Shown here one piece after another: positions 11,780 through 21,897 of a stretch of 24,000 nt of DNA; position 1 is the stretch's first letter; each line of letters opens with the position of its first letter. This DNA is from Promethearchaeota archaeon (lineage in GTDB: Archaea; Asgardarchaeota; Lokiarchaeia; Sigyniarchaeales; SOKP01), in the NCBI GenBank assembly GCA_048941015.1, contig JBHLNZ010000021.1, forward strand, positions 8,263 through 32,262, written 5' to 3'. The notes below the pieces were generated by a model. The model had not been told where the DNA came from. It did no database searches and saw nothing but the letters and a program-made list of their open reading frames with translations. The translations under genes were made by a program, and so were the position numbers.

Positions 11780-12643
11780 TTGAGAATATATATGGGTACT
11801 CAAGTTTTTCTTATAAATCCAGATGGAACCACAACTGAAATAAAATCTGAAGGGTCAATTAAAGATGTTTTAAAAACTGAAGATTGCTATGTTCTAGTTT
11901 CTGATGATATTAGGAAGGTATATCTATGGAAAGGATTGGAGAGCAATGTGAGATCAAAGTTTATTGGTGCCAAAAGGAGCCAAGAAATACGTGGACAAGT
12001 CGGTATGCATTATGCAGTTGTTCCCCAGGATGAAGGGGATGAAGAAGCTGAATTTTTAAAATTAATAGGCGGGAAGACAGAAGGAGGTATAGCTAAAGAA
12101 ATAAAAGCAGAACAAGCGTCTGTTGCTAAACCTGCCCCATCAGTTCACCCACTGAGGGAAAAGGATACTTTTGGAGCTCCAAAGCCAGCCCAAGGTATGA
12201 ATATTGCTGGAAGTAGAGATCGTATTGCTCAAAATACAGGCCCCTTATATAGAGGACAAGAATCTATGTCTATGCTCATGGAGGACGAGGTTAAAATAAA
12301 TTTTGAACAAATAATGCAAAAATTGGAAGAAATTAAAATGCCTGATGGATTTGAAAGGGAATTAATAATTATTGGAAATCATGCTTATTCAGTTGTAGAG
12401 AGAGTACAGACCTTCTTAGGAGAGAAACAAGTAACTAAAGAAATATCGAAGGTAGGAGCTGTCCCTGAGGGAATCTTTTTTGCTGAAGATTATTCTCCAA
12501 GAATTTTATCAGAAAATGGTAAAATTCTAGCTATAGAATTCTTAAAACGGACAACTGGACCAAAAGATACTACAGTTGAATTCAAATCTAAAAAAGAAAT
12601 TTTAAAAGATCAAATAAAAACTCAGCTTGAAGGTAAAAAATAG
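11780..12643 (+). CDS. Gelsolin/cofilin-fold domain protein with an uncharacterised C-terminal domain (1DGelX-like architecture); probable start at ATG 11792
   Basis: The N-terminal ~100 aa follow the gelsolin-repeat pattern: DCYVLVSDD-IRKVYLWKGLESNVRSKFIGAKRSQEIRGQ...VVPQDEGDEEAEFLKLIGG (compare gelsolin DxYIL / IYxWxG / xxE...A / EG-E-x-F). A ~60-aa linker of disordered appearance and a ~125-aa domain without a recognised motif follow. Confidence 0.7.
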   Translation: MRIYMGTQVFLINPDGTTTEIKSEGSIKDVLKTEDCYVLVSDDIRKVYLWKGLESNVRSKFIGAKRSQEIRGQVGMHYAVVPQDEGDEEAEFLKLIGGKTEGGIAKEIKAEQASVAKPAPSVHPLREKDTFGAPKPAQGMNIAGSRDRIAQNTGPLYRGQESMSMLMEDEVKINFEQIMQKLEEIKMPDGFERELIIIGNHAYSVVERVQTFLGEKQVTKEISKVGAVPEGIFFAEDYSPRILSENGKILAIEFLKRTTGPKDTTVEFKSKKEILKDQIKTQLEGKK

Positions 12644-12860: not shown

Positions 12861-13250
12861 ATGAGCGATTTAACTCCAGAAGAAGCACATTCATTATCAA
12901 AATTTCTTGGGAATATTACTGAACATACTGAACTGGAGGCTCTTGCCTTAGTGACACGTGATGGTTTACGTCTTGCTTTTTCTTGCATTCCAGATTATGA
13001 AGTCGATCCGGATCTATTTTCAAGTCTAAGTGCTGTAGTAATGCAAAGCGGACAGGATGCTATTGATTCTCTGGGTTATACTCATTTATTGGAAGTAGTT
13101 TTAAGAGGCGCAGATGCTTTTATTATTTTGAGTGCTGCTGGGAGATTCTTCTTAATGGGTGCAAGTAGAAAAATTGAAGATTTAGGTAAAATTGTAACGG
13201 TTTTTAGATATTATGCTGGAGAAATCGGGAAACGCTACCCTCTAACATAA
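12861..13250 (+). CDS. Roadblock/LC7 (MglB-like) domain protein
   Basis: A 129-aa single domain. LEALALVTRDGLRLA, an acidic loop, LLEVVLRGADAFIILSAAGRFFLMG and LGKIV follow the Roadblock/LC7 longin-like pattern. Confidence 0.75.
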   Translation: MSDLTPEEAHSLSKFLGNITEHTELEALALVTRDGLRLAFSCIPDYEVDPDLFSSLSAVVMQSGQDAIDSLGYTHLLEVVLRGADAFIILSAAGRFFLMGASRKIEDLGKIVTVFRYYAGEIGKRYPLT

Positions 13251-13364
13251 GATTTGAATTAAATGCTAATCAATCTGAATTAAGTGATTTTGAAGATATA
13301 ATAATGCTAAAAAATAAATAATACAAATTTTTAAATTGATAATTAAAAAATATAGTGACGTGAC

Positions 13365-15557
13365 ATGAGCGAAATCAAAATTTTTGTTGATGTAAATGAA
13401 GGTACCTCAAATAAAGTTGTTATTTGCCAAGAGAACGCAAACAAGTTAGGACTTTCCGAAGGTGCTTCAGTTGAAGTTGAAAATCCTGATAATAATAAAA
13501 AAGCCACTGCAACTATAGAAATTTCGAATATGGTTTTAGATTTTGCGGGACAGGTTTCAAAGAATGTTGTTGACGAATTGGAATTTGATGGTATTGAATT
13601 AATTATTCGTCCTGTTAGTAGTACTGGTCTAGCAGCTCCTAAATTACAGATACCGAAAGTTCCAACACCCAGACCGATTCCTACAACCCAACCAGGAATT
13701 TCCCAACAATCATCATTAACTCCATTACCCACACCTCCGCCTCAACCTATGCCAACTAGGCCAACACCTCAACCTAAACCGGCACCTACACCACAAGCAA
13801 CACCTATACCTGCTCATCAACCAGTTCCAAAACCTATTCCTCAACCTATGCCTATGCCTACTCCAACACCTCCACCACAGTATACTCCAGCACCTCCAGC
13901 ACCTACACCAGCACCTATCCCTCGAGTTGCTCCAATACCACCACCCCAACCAACGTATGATCAAGCTCCTACACAAGACTATAGTGTATCTTCTGTTCCT
14001 GCAGAACCATACCCTAATAAAATAGATGTCTATATGTTGCAAACTCAAAAGAATGGTATTGTTCTTAAACCCGTTGTTGATGATAATCTTGAAGGAGGAA
14101 GAGTACAAGTGAGTTCTTCCGTTATTCAACAATTAGGACTTGCTCCAGGATTACTAATTGCCTGGGAAGATCCTTTAACTCGTTCTATAGGCTCTGCTAG
14201 AATAGATCAAGCAATGGTTAATCCAGGTGAGATAAGAATGAGTAGAGATACAAAAGAAGATACAAATATCCAAGCTCAACAAATTGTAATTTATTCGACT
14301 GAACCTCCAATTCATAAAGCATCAGAATTAATGCTTGAAGTTCAATCTCAACCAAATTTAATGGGTTATTGTTTAGTTGGGCCTCGTACAATGTATACAC
14401 TATCTATTAAACAAGATGATGTTCTTGCATTTGAGGATGAACTTACAGGGGCTATAGGCGCTGGTAAAGTGGAAATTTCGGATGCCGTTCCACCTAATAG
14501 TATTGTTATCGATAGTGAGATATTAGAAGCATCTGGTATAGGAAGCTTTGAAGTTAAAGTTTCTAAAAATCTCCGTCCTATTATTCCATTACAAAATATT
14601 GCTCTTGGTATTTCTCCAATTTCAGGAGAAAATATGTGGGAAATCATAAGTACTGCTCGACAAAATGTGGATTCGTTAAAAGGATGGTTATCAAATTATA
14701 TCATCTTTAAAGGAATCAAGTTGAGATGGAATGCGGTAAACATAGCATGTTCAATAATCAGAACGGTTCCAGACTTGACTGGGGATGTCTTTGCCCAAAT
14801 TACACCAAATACCGCAATAAATTTAACGCCCACCGGATTAATACCCTTTAATGCAATTCTTATTATTGATATTAGTAGGAGCATGATGGCAAGAGATGTT
14901 TATGTGACTAATATTGCTCCTGCAATAGAAGGAATAAAAGCAGCTATGGAATCTCGAGAAATTCAAGAATTTCTAAAACATTTCAAAGCTGGAATCAATA
15001 TCCCAAGAAGAATTTCAGCAGCTTTTGCAGCGGTTTTGTTTTTAAGTGAAAAAGTTGGGAGAGGTTTTGGTGAAAAGGTCTCAATTATAAGATTTGCAGA
15101 TGAAGCACAAGTATTACCTTTTGGTGGTGGTTTCTATATGGATTCTGCTAGTGGAAAGAAAGGAATTCTTGAAGATGCAGCACGTATGATCGTTGATCGA
15201 ATAGGAAATGCTTATGGACAAGCTACCAATATGGGTCAAGCTATGATTAAAGCTCATCAAGTTTTAGCTGAGTTTGAAAAGATGAGTCCGGATCAGCCAA
15301 CAATGATCGTACTCTTAACGGATGGGATCCCTACGGATGGAGATGATTTCTTCAAATCAGTTAAAGGTTTTGCTGAGAATCCGAATGTGGTCATTTATAT
15401 AGTTGGACTAGGAAATCCTGATGATGAATTAATGATTAGAGCAGCATCGTTATGTGGTGGAGAATACTTTAAACCGGAGGATGCAGGTGAACTATTGATA
15501 TGGTATTCTAAACGAGCAAGAGATCTTACAGTTAAGTTGAAGGCGCATAAAGGTTAA
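13365..15557 (+). CDS. Multidomain protein: Cdc48-N-like barrel, Pro-rich tract, two more Cdc48-N-like barrels (+ beta-clam), C-terminal vWA domain with intact MIDAS
   Basis: vWA lies at aa ~496-715: ILIIDISRSMM (DxSxS), QATNMG (Thr) and IVLLTDGIPTDG (Asp). There are three segments of the pattern xxVxVxxxxxxxLGLxxGxxVxx...G.A.I (aa 5-85, 233-312, 323-402). They are followed by LKGWLSNYIIFKGIKLRW...IIRTVPDLTGDVFAQITPNTAINL, which resembles the Cdc48 domain-2 beta-clam. Confidence 0.8.
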   Translation: MSEIKIFVDVNEGTSNKVVICQENANKLGLSEGASVEVENPDNNKKATATIEISNMVLDFAGQVSKNVVDELEFDGIELIIRPVSSTGLAAPKLQIPKVPTPRPIPTTQPGISQQSSLTPLPTPPPQPMPTRPTPQPKPAPTPQATPIPAHQPVPKPIPQPMPMPTPTPPPQYTPAPPAPTPAPIPRVAPIPPPQPTYDQAPTQDYSVSSVPAEPYPNKIDVYMLQTQKNGIVLKPVVDDNLEGGRVQVSSSVIQQLGLAPGLLIAWEDPLTRSIGSARIDQAMVNPGEIRMSRDTKEDTNIQAQQIVIYSTEPPIHKASELMLEVQSQPNLMGYCLVGPRTMYTLSIKQDDVLAFEDELTGAIGAGKVEISDAVPPNSIVIDSEILEASGIGSFEVKVSKNLRPIIPLQNIALGISPISGENMWEIISTARQNVDSLKGWLSNYIIFKGIKLRWNAVNIACSIIRTVPDLTGDVFAQITPNTAINLTPTGLIPFNAILIIDISRSMMARDVYVTNIAPAIEGIKAAMESREIQEFLKHFKAGINIPRRISAAFAAVLFLSEKVGRGFGEKVSIIRFADEAQVLPFGGGFYMDSASGKKGILEDAARMIVDRIGNAYGQATNMGQAMIKAHQVLAEFEKMSPDQPTMIVLLTDGIPTDGDDFFKSVKGFAENPNVVIYIVGLGNPDDELMIRAASLCGGEYFKPEDAGELLIWYSKRARDLTVKLKAHKG
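13635..14015 (+). other. Proline-rich low-complexity tract (aa ~91-217) inside the vWA protein
   Basis: The stretch reads PKVPTPRPIPTTQP...PTPPPQPMPTRPTPQPKPAPTPQATPIPAHQPVPKPIPQPMPMPTPTPPPQYTPAPPAPTPAPIPRVAPIPPPQPTY. It forms a local GC-rich island (CCA/CCT codons) that generates the spurious Trp/Arg-rich antisense ORFs 13343-13732 and 13725-14132. Confidence 0.85.
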
Positions 15558-15687: not shown

Positions 15688-16098
15688 ATGAAATCAATAT
15701 TACATCATGCTCATCTTTTTGCGTCTAATCTTGATGAGAGTATCAGATTTTACCAACAAATGTTTGGAGCAGAAATTCTTTTTGATCTAGAGTTAGCAGG
15801 GGCTAGAAATGTGATGATTGCTATTGGTCCTTCAAAAATTAACTTCTACGACCAACCTCCTAGAGACAATGGTAAGGGGGCGGTCCACCATCTCGGGATC
15901 GAAACAGACGATTTAGAAGAACTCGTTGAACATATGAAAAGTAAGGGATATCAATTCAGGAAATCAATTAAACATTTAGGTGTTTTGAAGTATACTATAG
16001 CAGAAGCACCAGATCACGTACTTCTAGAACTTTTTGAAGTTGTTAAAGAAAAACTCCCTGAAGATCAATATAAATTGATCTCTAACTTTAAAACTTAA
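15688..16098 (+). CDS. VOC-family (glyoxalase / bleomycin-resistance / dioxygenase fold) protein
   Basis: The motifs HHAHLFASNLDESIRFYQQMFGAE and VHHLGIETDDLEELVEHMKSKGYQF are typical paired beta-alpha-beta-beta-beta modules with metal-ligand His/Glu. Confidence 0.8.
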   Translation: MKSILHHAHLFASNLDESIRFYQQMFGAEILFDLELAGARNVMIAIGPSKINFYDQPPRDNGKGAVHHLGIETDDLEELVEHMKSKGYQFRKSIKHLGVLKYTIAEAPDHVLLELFEVVKEKLPEDQYKLISNFKT

Positions 16099-16248: not shown

Positions 16249-16650
16249 ATGAAGGAAGTAAAAGTACTATCGATAGACGATCGTGGCAGGATCGTAATTC
16301 CTCAAATAATAAGAAAATCTCTCGGTCTAACCACAAACTCTCAATTAATAATGGTAAGCGATTCAGAAACAAAAGAAATAAAAATCACTCCTATAGGATT
16401 AGGTGGAGAGAAAATTCCAATTAAATTAAGAATTACTATGAAAGATATACCGGGAGCTCTAGCTAAACTTGCGACAACTTTCGGAGAGCATGGTCTAAGT
16501 ATGATGTATAGTGAAGCTGTAATAGTAGAGAAGGATAAGAAAGCTGTATGGACTGTTATTTCTGAAAGCCCCAGCAATTTAAATGAATTAAAAGAAACTT
16601 TAAAAGAGAAGGGAGAAGCAATAGAAGTTGAAGTTTTACCTTTAGAATAG
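16249..16650 (+). CDS. AbrB/SpoVT-type DNA-binding domain fused to an ACT domain (putative ligand-responsive regulator)
   Basis: The N-terminus SIDDRGRIVIPQIIRKSLGL is the swapped-hairpin AbrB/SpoVT signature. The C-terminus LRITMKDIPGALAKLATTFGEHGLSM...AVWTVISE follows the ACT pattern. Confidence 0.65.
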   Translation: MKEVKVLSIDDRGRIVIPQIIRKSLGLTTNSQLIMVSDSETKEIKITPIGLGGEKIPIKLRITMKDIPGALAKLATTFGEHGLSMMYSEAVIVEKDKKAVWTVISESPSNLNELKETLKEKGEAIEVEVLPLE

Positions 16651-16682: not shown

Positions 16683-17411
16683 ATGGCAAAAAAAAAAAAG
16701 AAGGATAAAGAAAAAGATCCTATTTCAGAATATTCATTAGACAGTACATTAAAATCCTCGAAAAAAACCAAAACAGATTTACAGGGATTATTAAGAGGAT
16801 TTTCTGAAGAGAAAGGATTTGGAGCACCGAAAGAAGAAGAAAGAATAAAGCCCCAATTATCATATGAGAGTAAGAAACAAATTGCTGAAGATTATATAAT
16901 GGAAGATATTCCTCTCAGTGAGAGAGAGAAGATAAAAGAAGAAAAAATTAAATTAGAGTCCGTAGAAGAAAAAGTAGTAGAGCTTAAGAAAGATGAAGAA
17001 TCTTCTTCCAAACCAATAAGTACTAAAGAAAAACCTTCTTTTTCGAAGAAAGATGATATCTATTTAAAGTTATCAAATTTTTTTGAAGAACTTTTTGTGG
17101 GTTATAATGAACGTTATGACAGATGGGAGAACTCAGTTTCAGCGTTACTTGCAATTTTAAGAAAAATGAGAAAAATAACTAAAAAAAATACTGAAGATTT
17201 AGTCTCAACAATCAATAATCAATATGAAAAAATACAAAAGAACCTTGAAGAATTTAAAATTAAGCGAGATGAGATAGAAAAAATCTCAGATGTAGATATC
17301 GAAATAATGTCAAGTGAATTTAAAAAAGTTTTGGGGTTATTAGAACTTCAAGTCAAAGAATACCAATTAAAGAAATTAACTGATGAGTATATTCATCAAT
17401 ATAAACTATAA
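16683..17411 (+). CDS. Lys/Glu-rich protein with a C-terminal helical/coiled-coil domain, hypothetical
   Basis: It starts MAKKKKKDKEKD, encoded by an A12 run. Residues ~1-125 are low-complexity K/E/S-rich. Residues ~125-242 look helical with heptad-like spacing. It lies 55 nt upstream of the actin-related gene on the same strand. Confidence 0.5.
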   Translation: MAKKKKKDKEKDPISEYSLDSTLKSSKKTKTDLQGLLRGFSEEKGFGAPKEEERIKPQLSYESKKQIAEDYIMEDIPLSEREKIKEEKIKLESVEEKVVELKKDEESSSKPISTKEKPSFSKKDDIYLKLSNFFEELFVGYNERYDRWENSVSALLAILRKMRKITKKNTEDLVSTINNQYEKIQKNLEEFKIKRDEIEKISDVDIEIMSSEFKKVLGLLELQVKEYQLKKLTDEYIHQYKL

Positions 17412-17466: not shown

Positions 17467-18621
17467 ATGAGTTTCCCCAATAAAGATCAGTTACGTCCTT
17501 TAATTCTTAATATCGGAAGTAATACTTTCAAAATGGGTTGGGCAGGAGATGATTTTCCCGATATTATCGCTCCAAGCATATATGTTGATGTTTCTGATTA
17601 CCTATATACTTCAGATGTAATTGACGGCTTAGAAGAGATTTATATTAATGAGGAAACTCAAAACCATTTGGTTGGACATCAAGCATTAAAATATCAAGAT
17701 ATCTTAAAAATTCACGAATTTAAAAAAGAAAAGAATTATAATTTGCTTACTAAATTTTTTTATTATTATTATAACCAATTAAAAATATCTTTAGAATTAC
17801 AATATAGGCAGCCACTAATTATACTTTTACCTTTTTTTAGTTCAGAATTAGAAAAAACTAAATTACAAGAAATTTTTTTCGAATCCTGTAATTTTCCAGC
17901 TATTTTATTTTTAGATGAAGCTCAAGCTATATTATCTACATTAGACAAGTCTAGTGGAGTGATTATAAATATTGGAGAATCAAATACGTATATCTCTACA
18001 ATATTTCATGGTTTTACGAATATAATGGCCCGAGATCTTTTTCCTGTAGCTGGGAAGGAATTAACAAATTATCTATTAAATTTAATTTTAGCAAGGAAAA
18101 GTTTAGTAAAAAATGTACATGTTGATAAAACTATAGCAAAAGAAGTTAAAGAAAAGTTATCTTTATGTCTTATAGATCCAGATACTGAAAAAAAAAGAGT
18201 TAAAGAAGGTTTAACTAAATATGATCGTACTATAGATCTACCAGATGGTTCTAGTTTAAAAATAAATTTAGAACGTTTTTTATTGGCAGAACCCCTATTT
18301 AATCCAAAACTTATACATATCGATTATATTGGATTAGCGGAAGCAGTATCTAAAGTGGTAAAATCCTGGGAGAGAGAAAACTGGGAAGATTTAGTGTCTA
18401 ATGTTATTTTAGCAGGTGGAGGAAGTTTAATATCTGGTCTTGATCGAAGATTAGAATTGGAATTAAAAAATTTCTTTTCAGAAAGATTAAAGCCAAAAAT
18501 AAAAGTAGTTGCTGCTTCAGGTCGAGAGAATATGGGTTGGATTGGAGCATCAATTCTTTATTCGAAGGGGCAATTACAAAAAGGTTGGGTTAAAAATCCT
18601 AATTTAGAAAATACAATTTAG
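17467..18621 (+). CDS. Actin-related protein (divergent member of the actin/Arp clade)
   Basis: The protein is colinear with eukaryotic actin throughout. [16 protein letters not shown] matches [42 protein letters not shown] matches [46 protein letters not shown] matches [21 protein letters not shown], and [10 protein letters not shown] matches VWIGGSILAS. Confidence 0.9.
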   Translation: [384 protein letters not shown]

Positions 18622-18684: not shown

Positions 18685-21273
18685 ATGACTGTTGATTTAG
18701 AGAGAAAAAAAGATTTTTTAGAAAATTTTCAAAAATATGTTATTCAAGGTAGGAAGTTATTACAATCTGCTAATCATAGATGGGCAGATCGATTATTCAC
18801 AGAATTATATTTCGAAATTGAAAAGAATGAATGGCTCGGTATACAAAGAAAGCATCAATTGATAATGATTATCTCTAACTCGTGGTGGATGTATATAAAT
18901 TCGTTAACTAAAGGAATCAATAGTCAAGCAGAAATGGATATTATTCGTTATATTGATGCGTATAAAAGATTTTTTTCTTTCTTATCGAGATTAGATGATT
19001 TCTATTTATTTAATAATTTTGCTACTAATCTTTTGAGATCATTTATTGGTTTTGAAAATTTATCTCAAAAAGGAATCACTAAATTCATTAATTCTTTTTG
19101 TGCTAAAGTTAGTGAAAGAGGAGAGTATCTTAAATTAATTGAATTGCAACTATTGTTGATGTTTTTAAGGAAATCTGTAATCCCTCAAGAGTTTTTTCAT
19201 TTTAGTATGGAGACTCTTGGAAGGACACTTTTTAAATTAGAACCGGCAAAGAGAGCTCTATTTTTATATATATTTTTGGAAAATGTTAATATTAATTATC
19301 AGCTTATTGATGACTCAGATGAATTCATCAAAATTATGAGTAAAATTTTAGTAAATCGAATTCCTAGTTATTTAAAAACTGAATTTAGCAATTTAGGTAG
19401 AATTACTATAAATCAGAGAAATTTTAATTTCATTTTAAATGATTTAGAAGATCTAATCCAATATTTAAATTATATTGGAGAAAATGTCTGGATTGCTGTT
19501 ATTATAAAAAACTTATTTTATAAAATTGAGCGATTTCAGTCGTTCGGAGATGCTGTGACATACATAAGAAAATTTATAGATTATGCAATAGCTAGAAATA
19601 GGTTTGAAATTGCCTTTGAGATATATGATTTTTTAGAAGATATTTTCTTGTCTAAAACTGATTTAGGATACGATAATATTTTAATTGAGTTATGGGTTGA
19701 AGCATGCAAGAAATTCGTAGAAATGAAAGAAAAAAAATATTTATTACAATCTCTAGAAAAATTAAATACTCATTTAAAAACGCCACAGACAAATGCACAA
19801 ATATTTCATTATTTTTATACCTGTAATTTATTATGGAAGTTTAAATCTATGTTCTTTTCTTTGGAACAAAGAGATTTTTGGCGAATGATGTTTTATCGAG
19901 CTCTTTTTGAAGAAAAAGACTATGATTTAGCAAGAAAAATATGTCCATATCTTGATAAGAATATTGGGTCTCAAATAGTTGATCCATCTATATTATTCCG
20001 GGAAAGCCAGGAGTTGCAAAAAGAGATATATTCCTTTAAAAATGAGGAGAATTTTTCTGAATTAGAGACTATGGCTTTTATTATAAAACAAATTATATTT
20101 CGAATAAATTCAGATGGGTTAATTTCATTTAGGATGATTTCTCAAGATAATGCTATGTTAGAAGGTAAAATTTCTGATGAGTTTTGGAATGATGCTCAAA
20201 TAAATGAAATATATTACGATCTTTTTAACCTTAATGAAGTAAAAAAGTTTGATTTTACATTGAAAGAATTTGGAAAATTACTATATATCTTTTTACCAAA
20301 AAAGATAAGGTATTTTTTCAAACATTTTGAGATTAAAGCACTTGATTTTGTACCGGAAATATATTTTATATTGGATCAGATGGCTGTGCCATTTGAAATG
20401 ATTTATGATAATAATTTTTTTTTGTTAAAATATTCTATAGGGTATATAATTGGGGAACCTCCTTTAGGTGGAGTCACTTTTGGATATGAAGACTCCTTAG
20501 AAGAACAAGCGGCTGTGAAAAAAAATAAATTCAATGTGCTAATTATTGAATGCACTAATTCCAAAAATCCTTTAAAATGGAATGAAGAGTCAAAATCAAA
20601 AGAAATTGTTTTTCCTTTCACGGCAGGCATTAATGAATTAAACTATATTATTGAATTTTTTAATAATAGGGAAGAAATAGATCAATTCACCATACTCTCT
20701 GGAGATTACTCTACTAAGGAAAACATTTTATCCAAAATTTTAGAAAGTAATAATCATATAATTCATTTTGTTGGTAATATATTTTATTCAAAATGGAATC
20801 CACAAGATAGCTTTATGATTACAAATGATAATGAAATATTAACATTTAGGAGCATAAATAAGGCAATTGAACAAAATCAATATATAAATGAAACACTTCT
20901 GTTTTTCAATTCTCAGGTGTTCGATGTAAAAGGAGAAAAATTACAGAATGTCTTGAGACCATTTGGAGAAATTGCCCAAAATTTTAATTATAATAAAATA
21001 ACAGGAATAATTTCACGAAATTATCCTATTTTCGATGATGAAACTAAAGAGATTAGTGCTAACTTTTATATACACTTATTCAAGAATTATAGTCAAGGAA
21101 TTGCTCTTTTGAAAGCAAGACAAGAATGCATGGCTAAAAAGATGACTAAACTTGTCGAGGAAAAATTTCAAACTCTAAGTGAAGAAGAAGGAATTATTAA
21201 CATTGATTTAGAGAGCTCTTTAGCAATTTCAAGTTACATACTCTTTGGAAAACCTTGGAAAACTATCATTTGA
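18685..21273 (+). CDS. Large helical-repeat (TPR-like) protein with a C-terminal CHAT (caspase-like, clan CD) domain lacking the canonical His/Cys dyad
   Basis: The C-terminal ~340 aa follow the CHAT profile. LGKLLYIFLPKKIRYFF...ALDFVPEIYFILDQMAVPFEMIY and NHIIHFVGNIFYS match the position of the xHxaxHG motif. NETLLFFNSQVFD matches the position of vvLsaCxs. YPIFDDETKEISANFYIHLFKNYSQGIALLKARQ matches WpvdDxxaxxlmxxFYxxLxxGxsxaeALrxAq. The N-terminal ~520 aa are all-helical and repeat-like. Confidence 0.7.
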   Translation: MTVDLERKKDFLENFQKYVIQGRKLLQSANHRWADRLFTELYFEIEKNEWLGIQRKHQLIMIISNSWWMYINSLTKGINSQAEMDIIRYIDAYKRFFSFLSRLDDFYLFNNFATNLLRSFIGFENLSQKGITKFINSFCAKVSERGEYLKLIELQLLLMFLRKSVIPQEFFHFSMETLGRTLFKLEPAKRALFLYIFLENVNINYQLIDDSDEFIKIMSKILVNRIPSYLKTEFSNLGRITINQRNFNFILNDLEDLIQYLNYIGENVWIAVIIKNLFYKIERFQSFGDAVTYIRKFIDYAIARNRFEIAFEIYDFLEDIFLSKTDLGYDNILIELWVEACKKFVEMKEKKYLLQSLEKLNTHLKTPQTNAQIFHYFYTCNLLWKFKSMFFSLEQRDFWRMMFYRALFEEKDYDLARKICPYLDKNIGSQIVDPSILFRESQELQKEIYSFKNEENFSELETMAFIIKQIIFRINSDGLISFRMISQDNAMLEGKISDEFWNDAQINEIYYDLFNLNEVKKFDFTLKEFGKLLYIFLPKKIRYFFKHFEIKALDFVPEIYFILDQMAVPFEMIYDNNFFLLKYSIGYIIGEPPLGGVTFGYEDSLEEQAAVKKNKFNVLIIECTNSKNPLKWNEESKSKEIVFPFTAGINELNYIIEFFNNREEIDQFTILSGDYSTKENILSKILESNNHIIHFVGNIFYSKWNPQDSFMITNDNEILTFRSINKAIEQNQYINETLLFFNSQVFDVKGEKLQNVLRPFGEIAQNFNYNKITGIISRNYPIFDDETKEISANFYIHLFKNYSQGIALLKARQECMAKKMTKLVEEKFQTLSEEEGIINIDLESSLAISSYILFGKPWKTII

Positions 21274-21357: not shown

Positions 21358-21897
21358 TTGTCAGATAGATTATTAGAACTTAGGATAGAAAATCAAAGAT
21401 TAAAAGAACAAGTTCAAGATTTAGAATCGAAAGTATTATCTTTAGTTGGTATGACTCATTTAGAATCCTCTGGGGGCCAGCAAAAGAAAGATATATTAAA
21501 TCAACACATCATTGAGTTGATTTATTCAACAAATACACAATTAAATATAGTTTCTCCAAAAATTGATAAATTTTATGCTACTGAAATCAAGAATTTAGTA
21601 CAAAAAGGGATTCCTGTTTTAATTATTACAAATGATAGAGGCTCCATTCCAAAAGGATACCAAGAAATTTATGATGAAATTAAGTTGTTTCAATCAGTTA
21701 AAATAATAAATAATCCAAATGTTAGATATTTATTAGTTTTTAACTCTAAAGAAGCAATTTATTCTGGAGGTTCATTAGATAAAGAAGAGTTAGAGAAAAC
21801 AATATTAATTATGACAAAAGTAAAAGAATCCACTCAATTAAGAAAAATTGCTGAAATATTTAGTCAAATGTTACCCTCTTTTATGAGAAAAGGATAG
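21358..21897 (+). CDS. Small protein: N-terminal coiled coil + degenerate PLD/TrmB-C-like domain, hypothetical
   Basis: TTG start. The N-terminus LLELRIENQRLKEQVQDLESKVLSL looks like a leucine-zipper. LNIVSPKIDKFYATEIKNLVQKGIPVLIITN ... VRYLLVFNSKEAIYSGGSLD parallels the PLD repeat (i.i.sPy...l..a..rGV.V.il ... HxKxxxxD...a.iGS.N), but the H, K, D and N positions are substituted. Confidence 0.35.
   Translation: MSDRLLELRIENQRLKEQVQDLESKVLSLVGMTHLESSGGQQKKDILNQHIIELIYSTNTQLNIVSPKIDKFYATEIKNLVQKGIPVLIITNDRGSIPKGYQEIYDEIKLFQSVKIINNPNVRYLLVFNSKEAIYSGGSLDKEELEKTILIMTKVKESTQLRKIAEIFSQMLPSFMRKG

What the first reader, a model, noticed from the sequence alone, without database searches (positions are those of the whole stretch)
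13365..15557. Unusual architecture: Cdc48-N-type substrate-binding domains without an AAA ATPase, split by a polyproline tract and fused to a MIDAS-intact vWA domain
Three segments look like the double-psi-barrel N-domain of Cdc48/VAT. The third is followed by a beta-clam-like segment, yet no Walker motifs exist anywhere in the 730 aa. Instead the C-terminus is a vWA domain with the DxSxS...T...D metal-site residues all present. The first barrel is separated from the rest by the Pro-rich linker (nt 13635-14015). The combination suggests an adaptor that couples a protein ligand (barrels) to a metal-dependent partner (vWA) over a long, stiff PPII spacer. No signal peptide or TM helix is evident, so it is probably cytoplasmic. 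That would be atypical for a prokaryotic vWA protein with Pro-rich tracts, which are often cell-surface proteins.
Basis: partly seen in the sequence, partly recalled or inferred. Interest (0 to 1): 0.68.

Follow-up and report, generated by a model that had tools for sequence, protein, structure and literature searches.

The report
Asgard Cdc48-N barrels fused to vWA
This is a real, very highly conserved cytoplasmic protein of Lokiarchaeia-type Asgard archaea that joins three Cdc48-type barrels to a metal-binding vWA domain without any ATPase. Its two-domain core looks most like the scaffold part of the eukaryotic nutrient-signalling protein DEPDC5/Iml1.

Summary
ORF 13365-15557 (+) encodes 730 aa:
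- a double-psi beta-barrel (DPBB)
- a disordered linker of about 130 aa with 38% proline
- a second DPBB
- a complete Cdc48/NSF-type N domain (DPBB plus beta-clam)
- a vWA domain with an intact metal-binding site (MIDAS: D502, S504, S506, T621, D653)

There are no Walker motifs, no signal peptide and no TM helix. AlphaFold2 models are confident. Foldseek assigns the barrel region to p97/NSF/Pex N domains.

It is not a one-off. At least 228 GTDB species genomes encode a relative. The 80 best loci are 77-94% identical over 505 aa (median 81%), more conserved than every neighbouring gene. Shorter N-domain+vWA forms occur in Heimdall-labelled MAGs.

The gene always follows a Roadblock/LC7 gene (67/67 loci). 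It lies in a fixed block: YjeF, gelsolin-domain protein, Roadblock, this gene, AbrB-ACT, coiled-coil, actin-related protein, 862-aa protein, 179-aa protein.

The full-length model's best PDB matches are DEPDC5 and yeast Iml1 (GATOR1/SEACIT), whose NTD-SABA module has the same N-domain then vWA-like order. Profile comparison supports homology through the N domain into the first vWA strand (93%, E 3e-7), but not for the rest of the vWA domain.

Best reading: an ATPase-independent scaffold working with the Roadblock partner. The mechanism is inferred, not shown. I found no description of the family in the searched literature.

The parts
13365..15557 (+). Complete ORF, 730 aa: DPBB1, Pro-rich linker, DPBB2, Cdc48-type N domain (DPBB3 + beta-clam), vWA
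13365..13628 (+). DPBB1 (aa 1-88), the first double-psi beta-barrel
   Evidence: AF2 pLDDT 93-97 with a bbab-bbab pattern. hhalign to barrel 3: prob 98%, E 1.6e-14. Weak Pfam Molydop_binding and MazE hits.
13629..14018 (+). Pro/Thr/Gln-rich disordered linker (aa 89-218; 38% Pro, longest run PPP)
   Evidence: pLDDT at or below about 53. Composition. Length and sequence vary among orthologues. Only weak short DNA repeats.
13716..13745 (+). Conserved LTPLPTPPPQ motif inside the linker (aa 118-127), a candidate short linear motif
   Evidence: L121 and P122 are invariant and P120 and P125 nearly invariant in 16 orthologues, while the rest of the linker is not conserved.
14019..14306 (+). DPBB2 (aa 219-314, including a short leading helix at 222-229)
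   Evidence: AF2. hhalign to barrels 1 and 3: prob 95-98%. Weak Pfam CDC48_N hit at aa 243-308.
14316..14576 (+). DPBB3 (aa 318-404), the Nn lobe of the Cdc48/NSF-type N domain
   Evidence: Foldseek top 50 hits are all AAA+ N domains. hhalign to the DEPDC5 NTD barrel: prob 91%, E 1e-6.
14577..14840 (+). Beta-clam-like Nc lobe (aa 405-492)
   Evidence: Foldseek alignments cover the whole p97 N domain (TMt 0.70-0.74). hhalign of the N-domain profile to p97-N and to DEPDC5 runs through this lobe in register.
14841..15530 (+). vWA domain (aa 493-722) of the prokaryotic VWA_2/BatA type. A helical insert of about 33 aa lies between D511 and R548.
   Evidence: Pfam VWA and VWA_2 above threshold. AF2 shows alternating beta/alpha elements. 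The profile hits solved vWA structures 4cn8, 4rck, 8s05 and 5a8j.
14868..14882 (+). MIDAS loop 1, D502-I-S504-R-S506
   Evidence: D in 49/49 members; each S in 47/49, with T in the other 2.
15225..15227 (+). MIDAS Thr621
   Evidence: T in 46/49 members. Aligned to the Thr of 5a8j VWA2.
15321..15323 (+). MIDAS Asp653, in LLTDG
   Evidence: D in 49/49 members. Aligned to the Asp of LLSDG in 5a8j.
12861..13250 (+). Roadblock/LC7 gene (129 aa), the invariant upstream neighbour and candidate partner
   Evidence: Pfam Robl_LC7 E 2.6e-6. Immediately upstream in 67/67 loci. Median identity 80%. 57% identical in the divergent L089 locus.
11780..12643 (+). Gelsolin-domain protein (287 aa) with a conserved C-terminal domain; part of the conserved block
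   Evidence: Pfam Gelsolin E 7.8e-4, just below threshold. Syntenic. 38% identical in L089.
16249..16650 (+). AbrB/SpoVT + ACT protein (133 aa); conserved downstream member of the block
16683..17411 (+). 242-aa Lys/Glu-rich, probably coiled-coil protein (coiled coil not tested); conserved downstream member of the block
17467..18621 (+). Actin-family protein (384 aa), divergent and ARP-like rather than Lokiactin; conserved member of the block
   Evidence: Pfam Actin E 1.6e-50. Only about 130-146 bits to solved actins. Synteny. Ca. L. ossiferum is reported to have one Lokiactin plus three ARPs (PMC9834061).

Best explanation
The gene encodes a cytoplasmic scaffold or adaptor protein that has no ATPase. 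It belongs to a family found so far only in Asgard-labelled genomes, and the family is undescribed in the searched literature.

The family's core is a Cdc48/NSF-type N domain (double-psi barrel plus beta-clam) fused directly to a vWA domain with a complete metal-ion-dependent adhesion site (MIDAS). The Lokiarchaeial long form adds two further paralogous barrels. The first of these is tethered by a flexible Pro-rich linker of about 130 aa.

Proposed mechanism (inferred):
- The vWA MIDAS holds Mg2+ or Mn2+ and captures an acidic side chain of a partner protein, as other MIDAS vWA domains do.
- The N domain and the extra barrels bind peptide motifs or small beta-grasp-like domains in their grooves, as Cdc48/NSF/Ufd1 N domains do.
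- The tethered first barrel reaches for a more distant ligand.

The most likely partner is the product of the invariantly adjacent Roadblock/LC7 gene. The gelsolin-domain protein and the actin-related protein of the same conserved block are further candidates. The N-domain+vWA core is built like the NTD-SABA module of DEPDC5/Iml1, which docks the longin subunits NPRL2/3 in GATOR1. By analogy, the protein probably serves as the docking platform of a Roadblock-based regulatory complex.

Shown here: the domain folds, the MIDAS conservation, the absence of an ATPase, the conservation level, the synteny, and the structural resemblance to DEPDC5/Iml1. Inferred: metal binding, the identity of the partners, and any link to a GTPase or to actin.
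For: Folds: the AF2 model of aa 225-493 has pLDDT 91.5. All of its top 50 Foldseek hits are AAA+ N domains, with TMt 0.70-0.74 to isolated p97-N. The full-length model has pLDDT 83.5.

vWA and MIDAS: Pfam VWA and VWA_2 are above threshold. The MIDAS residues are conserved in 46-49 of 49 members down to about 20% identity.

No ATPase, no TM helix.

Family breadth: long and short forms occur in Loki-, Sigyn- and Heimdall-labelled genomes. 228 GTDB species genomes hold a relative.

Strong constraint: the 505-aa C-terminal part has a median identity of 81% across 82 loci. The comparison values are 80% for Roadblock, 74% for gelsolin, 66% for YjeF and 65% for the actin-related protein.

Synteny: Roadblock is immediately upstream in 67/67 loci, and the nine-gene block is collinear wherever the contig is long enough. 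The YjeF-gelsolin-Roadblock-vWA quartet persists in a divergent lineage where the vWA protein is only 24-26% identical.

DEPDC5/Iml1 resemblance:
- The best full-length Foldseek hits are DEPDC5 and Iml1 (E about 2e-11, about 420-440 columns, rmsd 7.5-9 A, TMq 0.27-0.29). p97 and NSF give rmsd about 15-32 A and TMq about 0.19.
- hhalign of the Asgard core against a DEPDC5/Iml1 profile gives prob 93%, E 2.9e-7. The alignment runs from the barrel through the clam into the first vWA strand, pairing IDISxSM with IQMSxEM.
- Cross-domain negative controls are non-significant.
- The published description of DEPDC5 is an NTD similar to Sec18/NSF and a SABA domain similar to Sec23, with SABA binding NPRL2 (PMC8534245).
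Against: No physical interaction has been tested, and no complex prediction was possible.

Intergenic gaps of 114-217 bp and an AT-rich upstream region suggest the genes may have separate promoters.

No small GTPase gene lies in the window or in the conserved block.

By sequence, the vWA domain is an ordinary prokaryotic MIDAS vWA. It does not match Pfam IML1 or IML1_N. vWA against SABA alone is not significant (E 0.049).

The N domain resembles p97-N almost as well as it resembles the DEPDC5 NTD (E 1.8e-3 against 6.7e-4 in single-sequence controls). With the N region alone, DEPDC5 is not among the top 50 Foldseek hits.

The short-form paralogues in the Heimdall-labelled MAG sit next to GCS2-type ligase genes, not Roadblock genes. 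The Roadblock link may therefore be specific to the Loki-type long form.

The interdomain orientation comes from an AF2 model with an overall pTM of 0.55.
Confidence: 0.55

Rival explanations
1. It is a ubiquitin- or UBL-related receptor or adaptor. On this reading an Ufd1-like N domain binds ubiquitin-like proteins and an Rpn10-like vWA docks onto a proteasome or Cdc48 machine. It would then be a free-standing substrate-recruitment factor for the Asgard ubiquitin system.
For: The N domain has the same fold as the p97/Ufd1-type N domains that bind UBX, UBL and ubiquitin. The protein has a vWA domain, the domain type that Rpn10 uses in the proteasome (from my own knowledge). Weak Pfam hits to Ssl1 and Tfb4, which are cytoplasmic or nuclear eukaryotic vWA families, occur in a few members.
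Against: No ubiquitin, E1/E2/E3, proteasome or Cdc48 gene lies in the conserved block. The intact MIDAS is unlike Rpn10 (from my own knowledge). No Foldseek hit to Ufd1 or Rpn10 appears among the top 50 matches.
Confidence: 0.12
2. It is an actin-cytoskeleton accessory protein. On this reading the Pro-rich tract recruits profilin-actin, like an FH1 or VASP region. The barrels and vWA anchor the protein to the actin-related protein or to filaments, and it acts together with the neighbouring gelsolin-domain protein.
For: It lies in a conserved block with a gelsolin-domain protein and an actin-family protein. Asgard gelsolins and profilins regulate actin (PMC7444086; PMC9834061). The linker is proline-rich and contains a conserved LTPLPTPPP motif. 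Near-complete surface conservation is typical of cytoskeletal components.
Against: The longest proline run is three residues, far short of FH1-type poly-L-proline (comparison from my own knowledge). The linker is otherwise unconserved. In the divergent lineage the actin-family gene is not in the block, while gelsolin and Roadblock are. The short forms lack the linker altogether.
Confidence: 0.18
3. It is a generic prokaryotic vWA protein of the BatA/MoxR-partner or ArnB type, or a surface adhesin. On this reading the vWA domain acts with an AAA+ MoxR chaperone or with an FHA/kinase signalling pair, and the barrels are incidental.
For: The closest vWA matches by sequence are prokaryotic: 4rck, 8s05 and Sulfolobus VWA2 (5a8j, recalled to be an ArnB paralogue). 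There is a weak NCBIfam BatA hit. The SM..D..P.R signature is typical of VWA_2 (from the sequence and my own knowledge).
Against: No MoxR, FHA or kinase gene lies in the window or in the related loci inspected. The hydropathy scan shows no TM helix, which argues against a membrane-anchored surface protein. The barrels are as conserved as the vWA domain and belong to the family core in all 49 aligned members.
Confidence: 0.08

Closest known systems
DEPDC5 / Iml1 (Sea1) NTD-SABA module, the scaffold subunit of GATOR1/SEACIT
   Same: The domain order is the same: an NSF/Cdc48-type N domain (double-psi barrel plus second lobe) followed directly by a vWA/Sec23-trunk-like alpha/beta domain, with no ATPase. 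It is the best PDB match of the full-length model, with both domains superposed together. The profile alignment runs in register across the domain junction. DEPDC5 works with longin-domain partners in a pathway rich in Roadblock domains, and this gene is always next to a Roadblock gene.
   Different: The Asgard protein keeps a full MIDAS. DEPDC5 has Q-x-S-x-E and T-P-G at the aligned positions. It lacks the SHEN, DEP and C-terminal domains. It has two extra barrels and a Pro-rich linker. Pfam IML1 and IML1_N do not match it. Homology of vWA and SABA is not shown by sequence.
N domains of type II AAA+ ATPases (Cdc48/p97/VAT, NSF/Sec18, Pex1/Pex6, SPATA5)
   Same: The fold is the same double-psi barrel plus beta-clam (TMt 0.70-0.74, E about 1e-9). 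Weak Pfam CDC48_N hits occur in 15 of 41 members. Tandem N-type domains also occur in Pex1/Pex6, which gave the top hit over 431 columns.
   Different: No D1 or D2 ATPase follows the N domain, and there are no Walker motifs. A vWA domain follows instead. The window protein scores below the Pfam CDC48_N threshold.
Ufd1 (UT3 domain)
   Same: It is a Cdc48-type N domain found outside an ATPase and used as a binding module (from my own knowledge, not tested here).
   Different: Ufd1 has a single N domain and no vWA, and it is a Cdc48 cofactor. No Ufd1 hit appears among the top 50 matches of either Foldseek search.
Prokaryotic MIDAS vWA proteins (VWA_2/BatA type; Sulfolobus ArnB paralogue VWA2, PDB 5a8j)
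   Same: They are the best sequence matches of the vWA domain, and the DxSxS...T...D residues align.
   Different: None of the solved prokaryotic vWA matches is reported to carry Cdc48-type N domains (not checked here). This family has a helical insert of about 33 aa after MIDAS loop 1. Partner genes such as MoxR or FHA are absent.
Sec23/Sec24 (COPII)
   Same: They combine a vWA-fold trunk domain, a beta-barrel and a gelsolin-like domain. Here a vWA/barrel protein and a gelsolin-domain protein are encoded two genes apart. The similarity of the SABA domain to Sec23 is stated in PMC8534245.
   Different: In Sec23/24 these are domains of one polypeptide, in a different order and with a zinc finger. 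No Sec23/24 hit appears among the top 50 Foldseek matches. This is a resemblance in the list of parts only.

Membership tests
vWA domain with MIDAS (Pfam PF00092 / PF13519) | Profile match above the curated threshold | tested here: met
   VWA 36.1 bits (cut-off 23.8); VWA_2 31.3 bits (cut-off 27). VWA matches 40 of 41 family members.
vWA domain with MIDAS (Pfam PF00092 / PF13519) | DxSxS ... T ... D metal-site residues at the aligned positions | tested here: met
   D502, S504, S506, T621 and D653 are conserved in 49, 47, 47, 46 and 49 of 49 members. T and D align to those of 5a8j. VWA_2 profile positions 2-106 span aa 498-654.
vWA domain with MIDAS (Pfam PF00092 / PF13519) | Alternating beta/alpha (Rossmann-like) fold | tested here: met
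   AF2 shows strands at 496-502, 571-577, 646-652 and 675-681 alternating with helices, at pLDDT about 85-95.
vWA domain with MIDAS (Pfam PF00092 / PF13519) | Binding of a divalent cation and an acidic ligand | not testable with these tools
   Needs biochemistry or an experimental structure.
Cdc48/VAT/NSF-type N domain | Double-psi beta-barrel (beta-beta-alpha-beta x2) | tested here: met
   DSSP pattern of the AF2 models. Foldseek top 50 hits are all N domains. The profile hits Cdc48 and VAT-N sequences at E 2e-3 to 8e-3.
Cdc48/VAT/NSF-type N domain | C-terminal beta-clam lobe following the barrel | tested here: met
   About 175-190 aligned columns cover the whole p97-N domain, TMt 0.70-0.74. 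hhalign to p97-N spans both lobes.
Cdc48/VAT/NSF-type N domain | Pfam CDC48_N match above threshold | tested here: not met
   16.7 bits against a cut-off of 35.1 for the window protein. The best E among relatives is 1.1e-6.
Cdc48-family type II AAA+ ATPase | AAA+ D1/D2 modules with Walker A and Walker B motifs after the N domain | tested here: not met
   No Walker A or B pattern. No AAA Pfam hit. It is therefore not a Cdc48-family ATPase.
DEPDC5/Iml1 (GATOR1/SEACIT scaffold) | N domain followed by a vWA/Sec23-trunk-like (SABA) domain in one rigid module | tested here: met
   The top Foldseek hits of the full model are DEPDC5 and Iml1, with about 420-440 columns, rmsd 7.5-9 A and TMq 0.27-0.29, against about 0.19 for p97. 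This rests on a predicted interdomain orientation.
DEPDC5/Iml1 (GATOR1/SEACIT scaffold) | Sequence match to Pfam IML1_N (PF23013) and IML1 (PF12257) | tested here: not met
   Neither family matches any of 41 members at E <= 10, although DEPDC5 itself matches them strongly. Profile-profile comparison gives prob 93% and E 2.9e-7, but only for the N domain plus the first vWA strand.
DEPDC5/Iml1 (GATOR1/SEACIT scaffold) | SHEN, DEP and C-terminal domains | tested here: not met
   The protein ends 8 residues after the vWA domain.
DEPDC5/Iml1 (GATOR1/SEACIT scaffold) | Complex with longin/Roadblock-type subunits (NPRL2/3) and GAP activity toward Rag GTPases | tested here: inconclusive
   A Roadblock/LC7 gene is adjacent in 67/67 loci. 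No interaction was tested and no GTPase gene is in the block.
MoxR-vWA / BatA-type systems | Adjacent MoxR AAA+ ATPase or Bat operon genes | tested here: not met
   None in the window or in loci L001 and L002. The BatA NCBIfam score is 17 against a cut-off of 380.

The most novel reading that the evidence does not exclude
The Asgard N-domain+vWA family is the archaeal ancestor of the NTD-SABA scaffold of DEPDC5/Iml1. If so, it would be an Asgard counterpart for DEPDC5, the GATOR1 subunit for which the searched literature reports no Asgard homologue, whereas NPRL2-like longin proteins are reported. In Lokiarchaeia it would work with the invariantly adjacent Roadblock protein as a primordial Roadblock/longin-based GTPase-regulating platform. 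Through the co-conserved gelsolin-domain and actin-related genes, that platform would be wired to the cytoskeleton rather than to TOR.
Probability: 0.25. Interest if true: 0.85.

Novelty: new variant of a known kind. Interest (0 to 1): 0.66.

Why it matters
Asgard archaea are searched for precursors of eukaryotic machinery. Longin proteins resembling NPRL2 and FLCN, and Rag-like GTPases, have been reported there. The searched literature reports no counterpart of the GATOR1 scaffold DEPDC5/Iml1.

This protein gives a concrete and testable candidate. It has the same two-domain module and still carries a working-looking metal site. It sits next to a Roadblock gene.

Independently of that link, it is the most conserved protein of a nine-gene block present in essentially all sampled Lokiarchaeia. 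That block also encodes a gelsolin-domain protein and an actin-related protein. It is therefore likely to be a central and entirely uncharacterised component of Lokiarchaeial cell biology.

It also shows that the Cdc48-type N domain was used as an ATPase-free binding module in archaea.

Tried and rejected
1. Sequence search of the single protein against PDB. It gave only low-complexity proline hits and a weak 5a8j match.

2. Literature searches. Queries combined Asgard with vWA, von Willebrand, DEPDC5, GATOR1 or Iml1, and also covered Lokiactin gene neighbourhoods and double-psi barrel plus vWA. None describes this family or gene block.

3. The search for related loci with the 41-sequence alignment. 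It failed because the alignment was too divergent. It was repeated with 11 sequences, but only the 80 closest loci are returned, all Loki-type.

4. A homologue search with a profile of the short forms. It returned only 5 proteins, a limit of the word index. The taxonomic spread of the short forms therefore rests on the representative search and on a few names.

5. Pfam IML1 and IML1_N do not match the family. hhalign of vWA against SABA alone is not significant. Specific DEPDC5 orthology is therefore not claimed.

6. Surface-adhesin reading. Rejected because the hydropathy scan shows no TM helix and the gene context is cytoplasmic.

7. MoxR/BatA, ArnB and defence-type readings. MoxR/BatA and ArnB are rejected because the partner genes are absent. 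No defence-system search was run; the gene's presence in at least 228 species genomes in one fixed block argues against a defence role.

8. Tandem-repeat origin of the linker. Only short, weak DNA repeats were found.

9. NCBIfam has no curated family for this protein or for the 862-aa neighbour. The PDB sequence search of the 862-aa neighbour found nothing.


Full report
**What is there.** The window is low-GC (about 25-38%). ORF 13365..15557 (+) encodes 730 aa. Its neighbours are a gelsolin-domain protein, a Roadblock/LC7 protein and an actin-family protein. The closest database relatives are named only 'VWA domain-containing protein' and come from Promethearchaeota/Lokiarchaeota MAGs. The source is therefore an Asgard archaeon of the Lokiarchaeia type.

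**Check of the observation: domain folds.**
- Pfam finds VWA (36.1 bits) and VWA_2 (31.3 bits) above threshold at the C-terminus.
- It finds sub-threshold CDC48_N (aa 243-308) and Molydop_binding (aa 16-51). Both are double-psi barrel families.
- I built an alignment of 31 diverse relatives for aa 225-493. The AlphaFold2 model from it has pLDDT 91.5. It shows two beta-beta-alpha-beta x2 units followed by a helix-plus-strand lobe.
- Foldseek against the PDB returns 380 matches at E <= 1e-3. All of the top 50 are N domains of Pex1/6, NSF, p97/Cdc48, SPATA5 or MSMEG_0858.
- About 175-190 columns align onto the whole 170-180 aa p97 N domain (TMt 0.70-0.74).
- The third barrel and the following segment are therefore a complete Cdc48-type N domain: DPBB plus beta-clam.

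**Check of the observation: the rest of the protein.**
- The full-length model (pLDDT 83.5) adds a first barrel at aa 4-83 and a vWA fold at aa 496-719. In between, aa 89 to about 210 scores a pLDDT of about 53 or less.
- The three barrels are mutually homologous (hhalign prob 95-98%).
- There is no Walker A or B motif. No 19-residue segment exceeds a hydropathy of 1.45.
- The MIDAS residues D502, S504, S506, T621 and D653 are conserved in 46-49 of 49 family members down to about 20% identity.
- D511 and R548 are also invariant. They correspond to the 'SM..D..P.R' signature of prokaryotic VWA_2-type domains, split here by a helical insert of about 33 aa (from the sequence and my own knowledge).

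**The family.**
- A full scan of 1.84 billion representative proteins gave only 143 hits at E <= 1e-3.
- Long forms with several barrels come from genomes labelled Promethearchaeota and Sigynarchaeota.
- Many forms of about 410-550 aa begin at the third barrel. They consist of one N domain plus vWA, and two of them are labelled Heimdallarchaeota.
- The minimal conserved unit is therefore N domain + vWA. The extra two barrels and the linker are additions of the Loki-type form.
- In the species-level genome collection, 228 stretches encode a relative. The best 80 are 77-94% identical over 505 aa.
- In a 16-sequence alignment the N-terminal barrel and aa 215-730 are highly conserved. The linker varies in length and sequence except for the motif LTPLPTPPP.

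**Context and constraint.**
- Two long contigs show the order YjeF, gelsolin-domain protein, Roadblock, this gene, AbrB/ACT, coiled-coil, actin-family protein, protein of about 865 aa, protein of about 180 aa.
- By tblastn of the window's proteins against 82 related loci, the block is collinear wherever the contig reaches far enough. Roadblock is immediately upstream in 67 of 67 loci that have at least 1.5 kb of upstream sequence.
- Median identities to the window's proteins are below.

| Gene product | Median identity |
|---|---|
| C-terminal 505 aa of this protein | 81% |
| Roadblock | 80% |
| Gelsolin-domain protein | 74% |
| YjeF | 66% |
| AbrB/ACT | 66% |
| Actin-family protein | 65% |
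| 179-aa protein | 64% |
| 862-aa protein | 62% |
| N-terminal barrel of this protein | 57% |
| Coiled-coil protein | 56% |

- This protein is the most conserved member of its block.
- In a divergent lineage (P0164, P0174) the positional orthologue is only 24-26% identical. Even so, the YjeF, gelsolin (38% identical) and Roadblock (57% identical) genes still precede it.
- The neighbouring actin-family protein scores only about 130-146 bits against solved actins. It is probably one of the Asgard actin-related proteins rather than Lokiactin. Ca. L. ossiferum is reported to have one Lokiactin and three ARPs (PMC9834061).
- Thor 1DGelX, a single-gelsolin-domain protein, severs actin filaments in vitro (PMC7444086). 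The protein here has a different C-terminal domain.

**The DEPDC5/Iml1 lead: structure.**
- Foldseek with the full-length model puts human DEPDC5 (9o5e_H, 9xzy, 9o5a_B, 9v0j_C, 7t3a_A) and yeast Iml1 (8ae6_W, 8adl_W) at or near the top. These hits have E about 2e-11 to 6e-10, about 420-440 aligned columns, rmsd 7.5-9.4 A and TMq 0.27-0.29.
- p97 and NSF hits have similar E-values but rmsd about 15-32 A and TMq about 0.18-0.22, because only the N domain fits.
- A review states that the DEPDC5 NTD resembles Sec18/NSF and that its SABA domain resembles Sec23. It also states that SABA binds NPRL2 (PMC8534245). From my own knowledge, the matching part of Sec23 is its vWA-fold trunk domain.
- Pfam now annotates DEPDC5 aa 5-89 as 'IML1 N-terminal double psi beta barrel'.
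- DEPDC5/Iml1 therefore has the same N-domain then vWA-fold order without an ATPase.

**The DEPDC5/Iml1 lead: sequence.**
- I confirmed the DEPDC5 1-440 sequence against the PDB and collected 24 diverse metazoan DEPDC5/Iml1 N-terminal regions.
- hhalign of the Asgard core profile against that profile gives prob 93% and E 2.9e-7 over 160 columns. The alignment runs from the barrel through the clam into the first vWA strand. There the MIDAS loop IDISxSM..D aligns with IQMSxEM..D.
- N domain against NTD alone gives prob 96% and E 5.5e-9.
- vWA against SABA alone is not significant (E 0.049). Its best local match is the structurally equivalent LLTDG / VITPG strand.
- The cross-domain controls are non-significant.
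- In single-sequence controls, the Asgard N profile matches p97-N at E 1.8e-3 and the DEPDC5 NTD at E 6.7e-4. The DEPDC5 NTD profile matches p97-N only at E 0.03.
- Pfam IML1 and IML1_N do not hit any family member.
- Conclusion: superfamily-level homology of the N domain is solid, and the two-domain architecture and its junction resemble DEPDC5/Iml1. A specific ancestor-descendant relationship is plausible but unproven.

**How it most likely works.** The protein has no catalytic or ATPase motif, it has several binding modules, and almost its entire folded surface is conserved. This is the profile of a scaffold that contacts several partners or assembles into a larger structure.

I propose three binding functions. 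The MIDAS vWA captures an acidic residue of a partner through a bound cation. The N domain and the additional barrels bind peptide or small-domain ligands. The first barrel acts at a distance on its flexible tether.

The invariantly adjacent and equally conserved Roadblock protein is the prime candidate partner. This parallels SABA docking the longin subunit NPRL2 in GATOR1. All of these steps are inferences, and none could be tested with the tools available.

**Rivals.** Three alternatives were considered:
- a ubiquitin/UBL receptor, like Ufd1 combined with Rpn10
- an actin-regulatory factor that uses the Pro-rich tract for profilin
- a generic BatA/MoxR- or ArnB-type vWA protein

The first lacks any supporting gene context. 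The second is weakened by the absence of poly-proline runs longer than three residues and by loss of the actin-family neighbour in the divergent lineage. It still cannot be excluded, given the gelsolin/ARP block. The third is contradicted by the absence of partner genes and by the conserved barrels.

**Novelty.** The domains are known, and an analogous two-domain module exists in DEPDC5/Iml1. Three things appear undescribed in the searched literature and curated family libraries:
- this Asgard family with an intact MIDAS
- the multi-barrel Lokiarchaeial form
- its fixed Roadblock/gelsolin/ARP block

I rate it a new variant of a known kind, of good interest mainly for the testable link to the origin of the GATOR1 scaffold.

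Noticed in passing
window 13343-13732 (-) and 13725-14132 (-): Two antisense ORFs of 129 and 135 aa overlap the Pro-rich linker. Their products are rich in Gly, Trp, Arg and Cys. They look like mirror images of the CCN proline codons rather than genes.
   Followed up: partly
window 15688-16098 (+): A glyoxalase/VOC-family gene sits between this gene and the AbrB/ACT gene. Only 1 of 82 related loci has it at this position, so it is a recent insertion into an otherwise fixed block.
   Followed up: partly
window 17467-18621 (+): The actin-family gene of the block is divergent. It scores about 130-146 bits to solved actins, and its median identity among Lokiarchaeia is 65%. It is probably an Asgard actin-related protein rather than Lokiactin.
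   Followed up: partly
window 11780-12643 (+): The gelsolin-domain ORF is listed with a TTG start (MRIYMGTQVF...). The orthologue in L089 starts at the position of the internal ATG (MQLFIV...), so the true start is probably the ATG at 11792. Its conserved C-terminal domain (aa about 175-260) has no family assignment.
   Followed up: partly
L084 (WJIK01000003.1, MAG labelled Heimdallarchaeota) and L083: Four short-form N-domain+vWA paralogues (431, 412, 422 and 461 aa) cluster together with coiled-coil proteins and a GCS2-type carboxylate-amine ligase gene. Another paralogue (P0128) is followed two genes later by a GCS2 gene. P0197 (962 aa) is a fusion of the module to a C-terminal region with a weak GCS2 hit (E 0.068). 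This suggests a different functional link for the short forms.
   Followed up: partly
L085 and L089 (P0174, P0164): In one divergent lineage the positional orthologue has dropped to 24-26% identity, with MIDAS changes (S to T; T621 to S or M). Meanwhile the adjacent Roadblock stays 57% identical. The two genes are therefore under very unequal constraint in that lineage.
   Followed up: partly
L049 and L055 (JAZGCJ010000095.1, JAZGCJ010000050.1): Two short contigs of a MAG labelled Thermodesulfobacteriota bacterium each carry a copy of this Asgard gene that is 80% identical. This is most likely binning contamination, or two Asgard strains binned together. Several loci labelled Hod-, Hermod-, Thor- or Odinarchaeota are 77-94% identical to the Loki-type gene, so those labels look unreliable.
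   Followed up: no
window 18685-21273 (+) and 21358-21897 (+): The 862-aa protein has only a weak CHAT (caspase-like) Pfam hit, E 4.5e-4. The 179-aa protein has no Pfam match and only weak sub-threshold NCBIfam hits. Both are conserved members of the block.
   Followed up: partly
window 16249-16650 (+): The downstream AbrB/SpoVT + ACT fusion carries a swapped-hairpin barrel. That fold belongs to the same cradle-loop barrel group as the double-psi barrels of the protein under study (from my own knowledge). It matches NCBIfam PRK08577 at E 6e-26.
   Followed up: no
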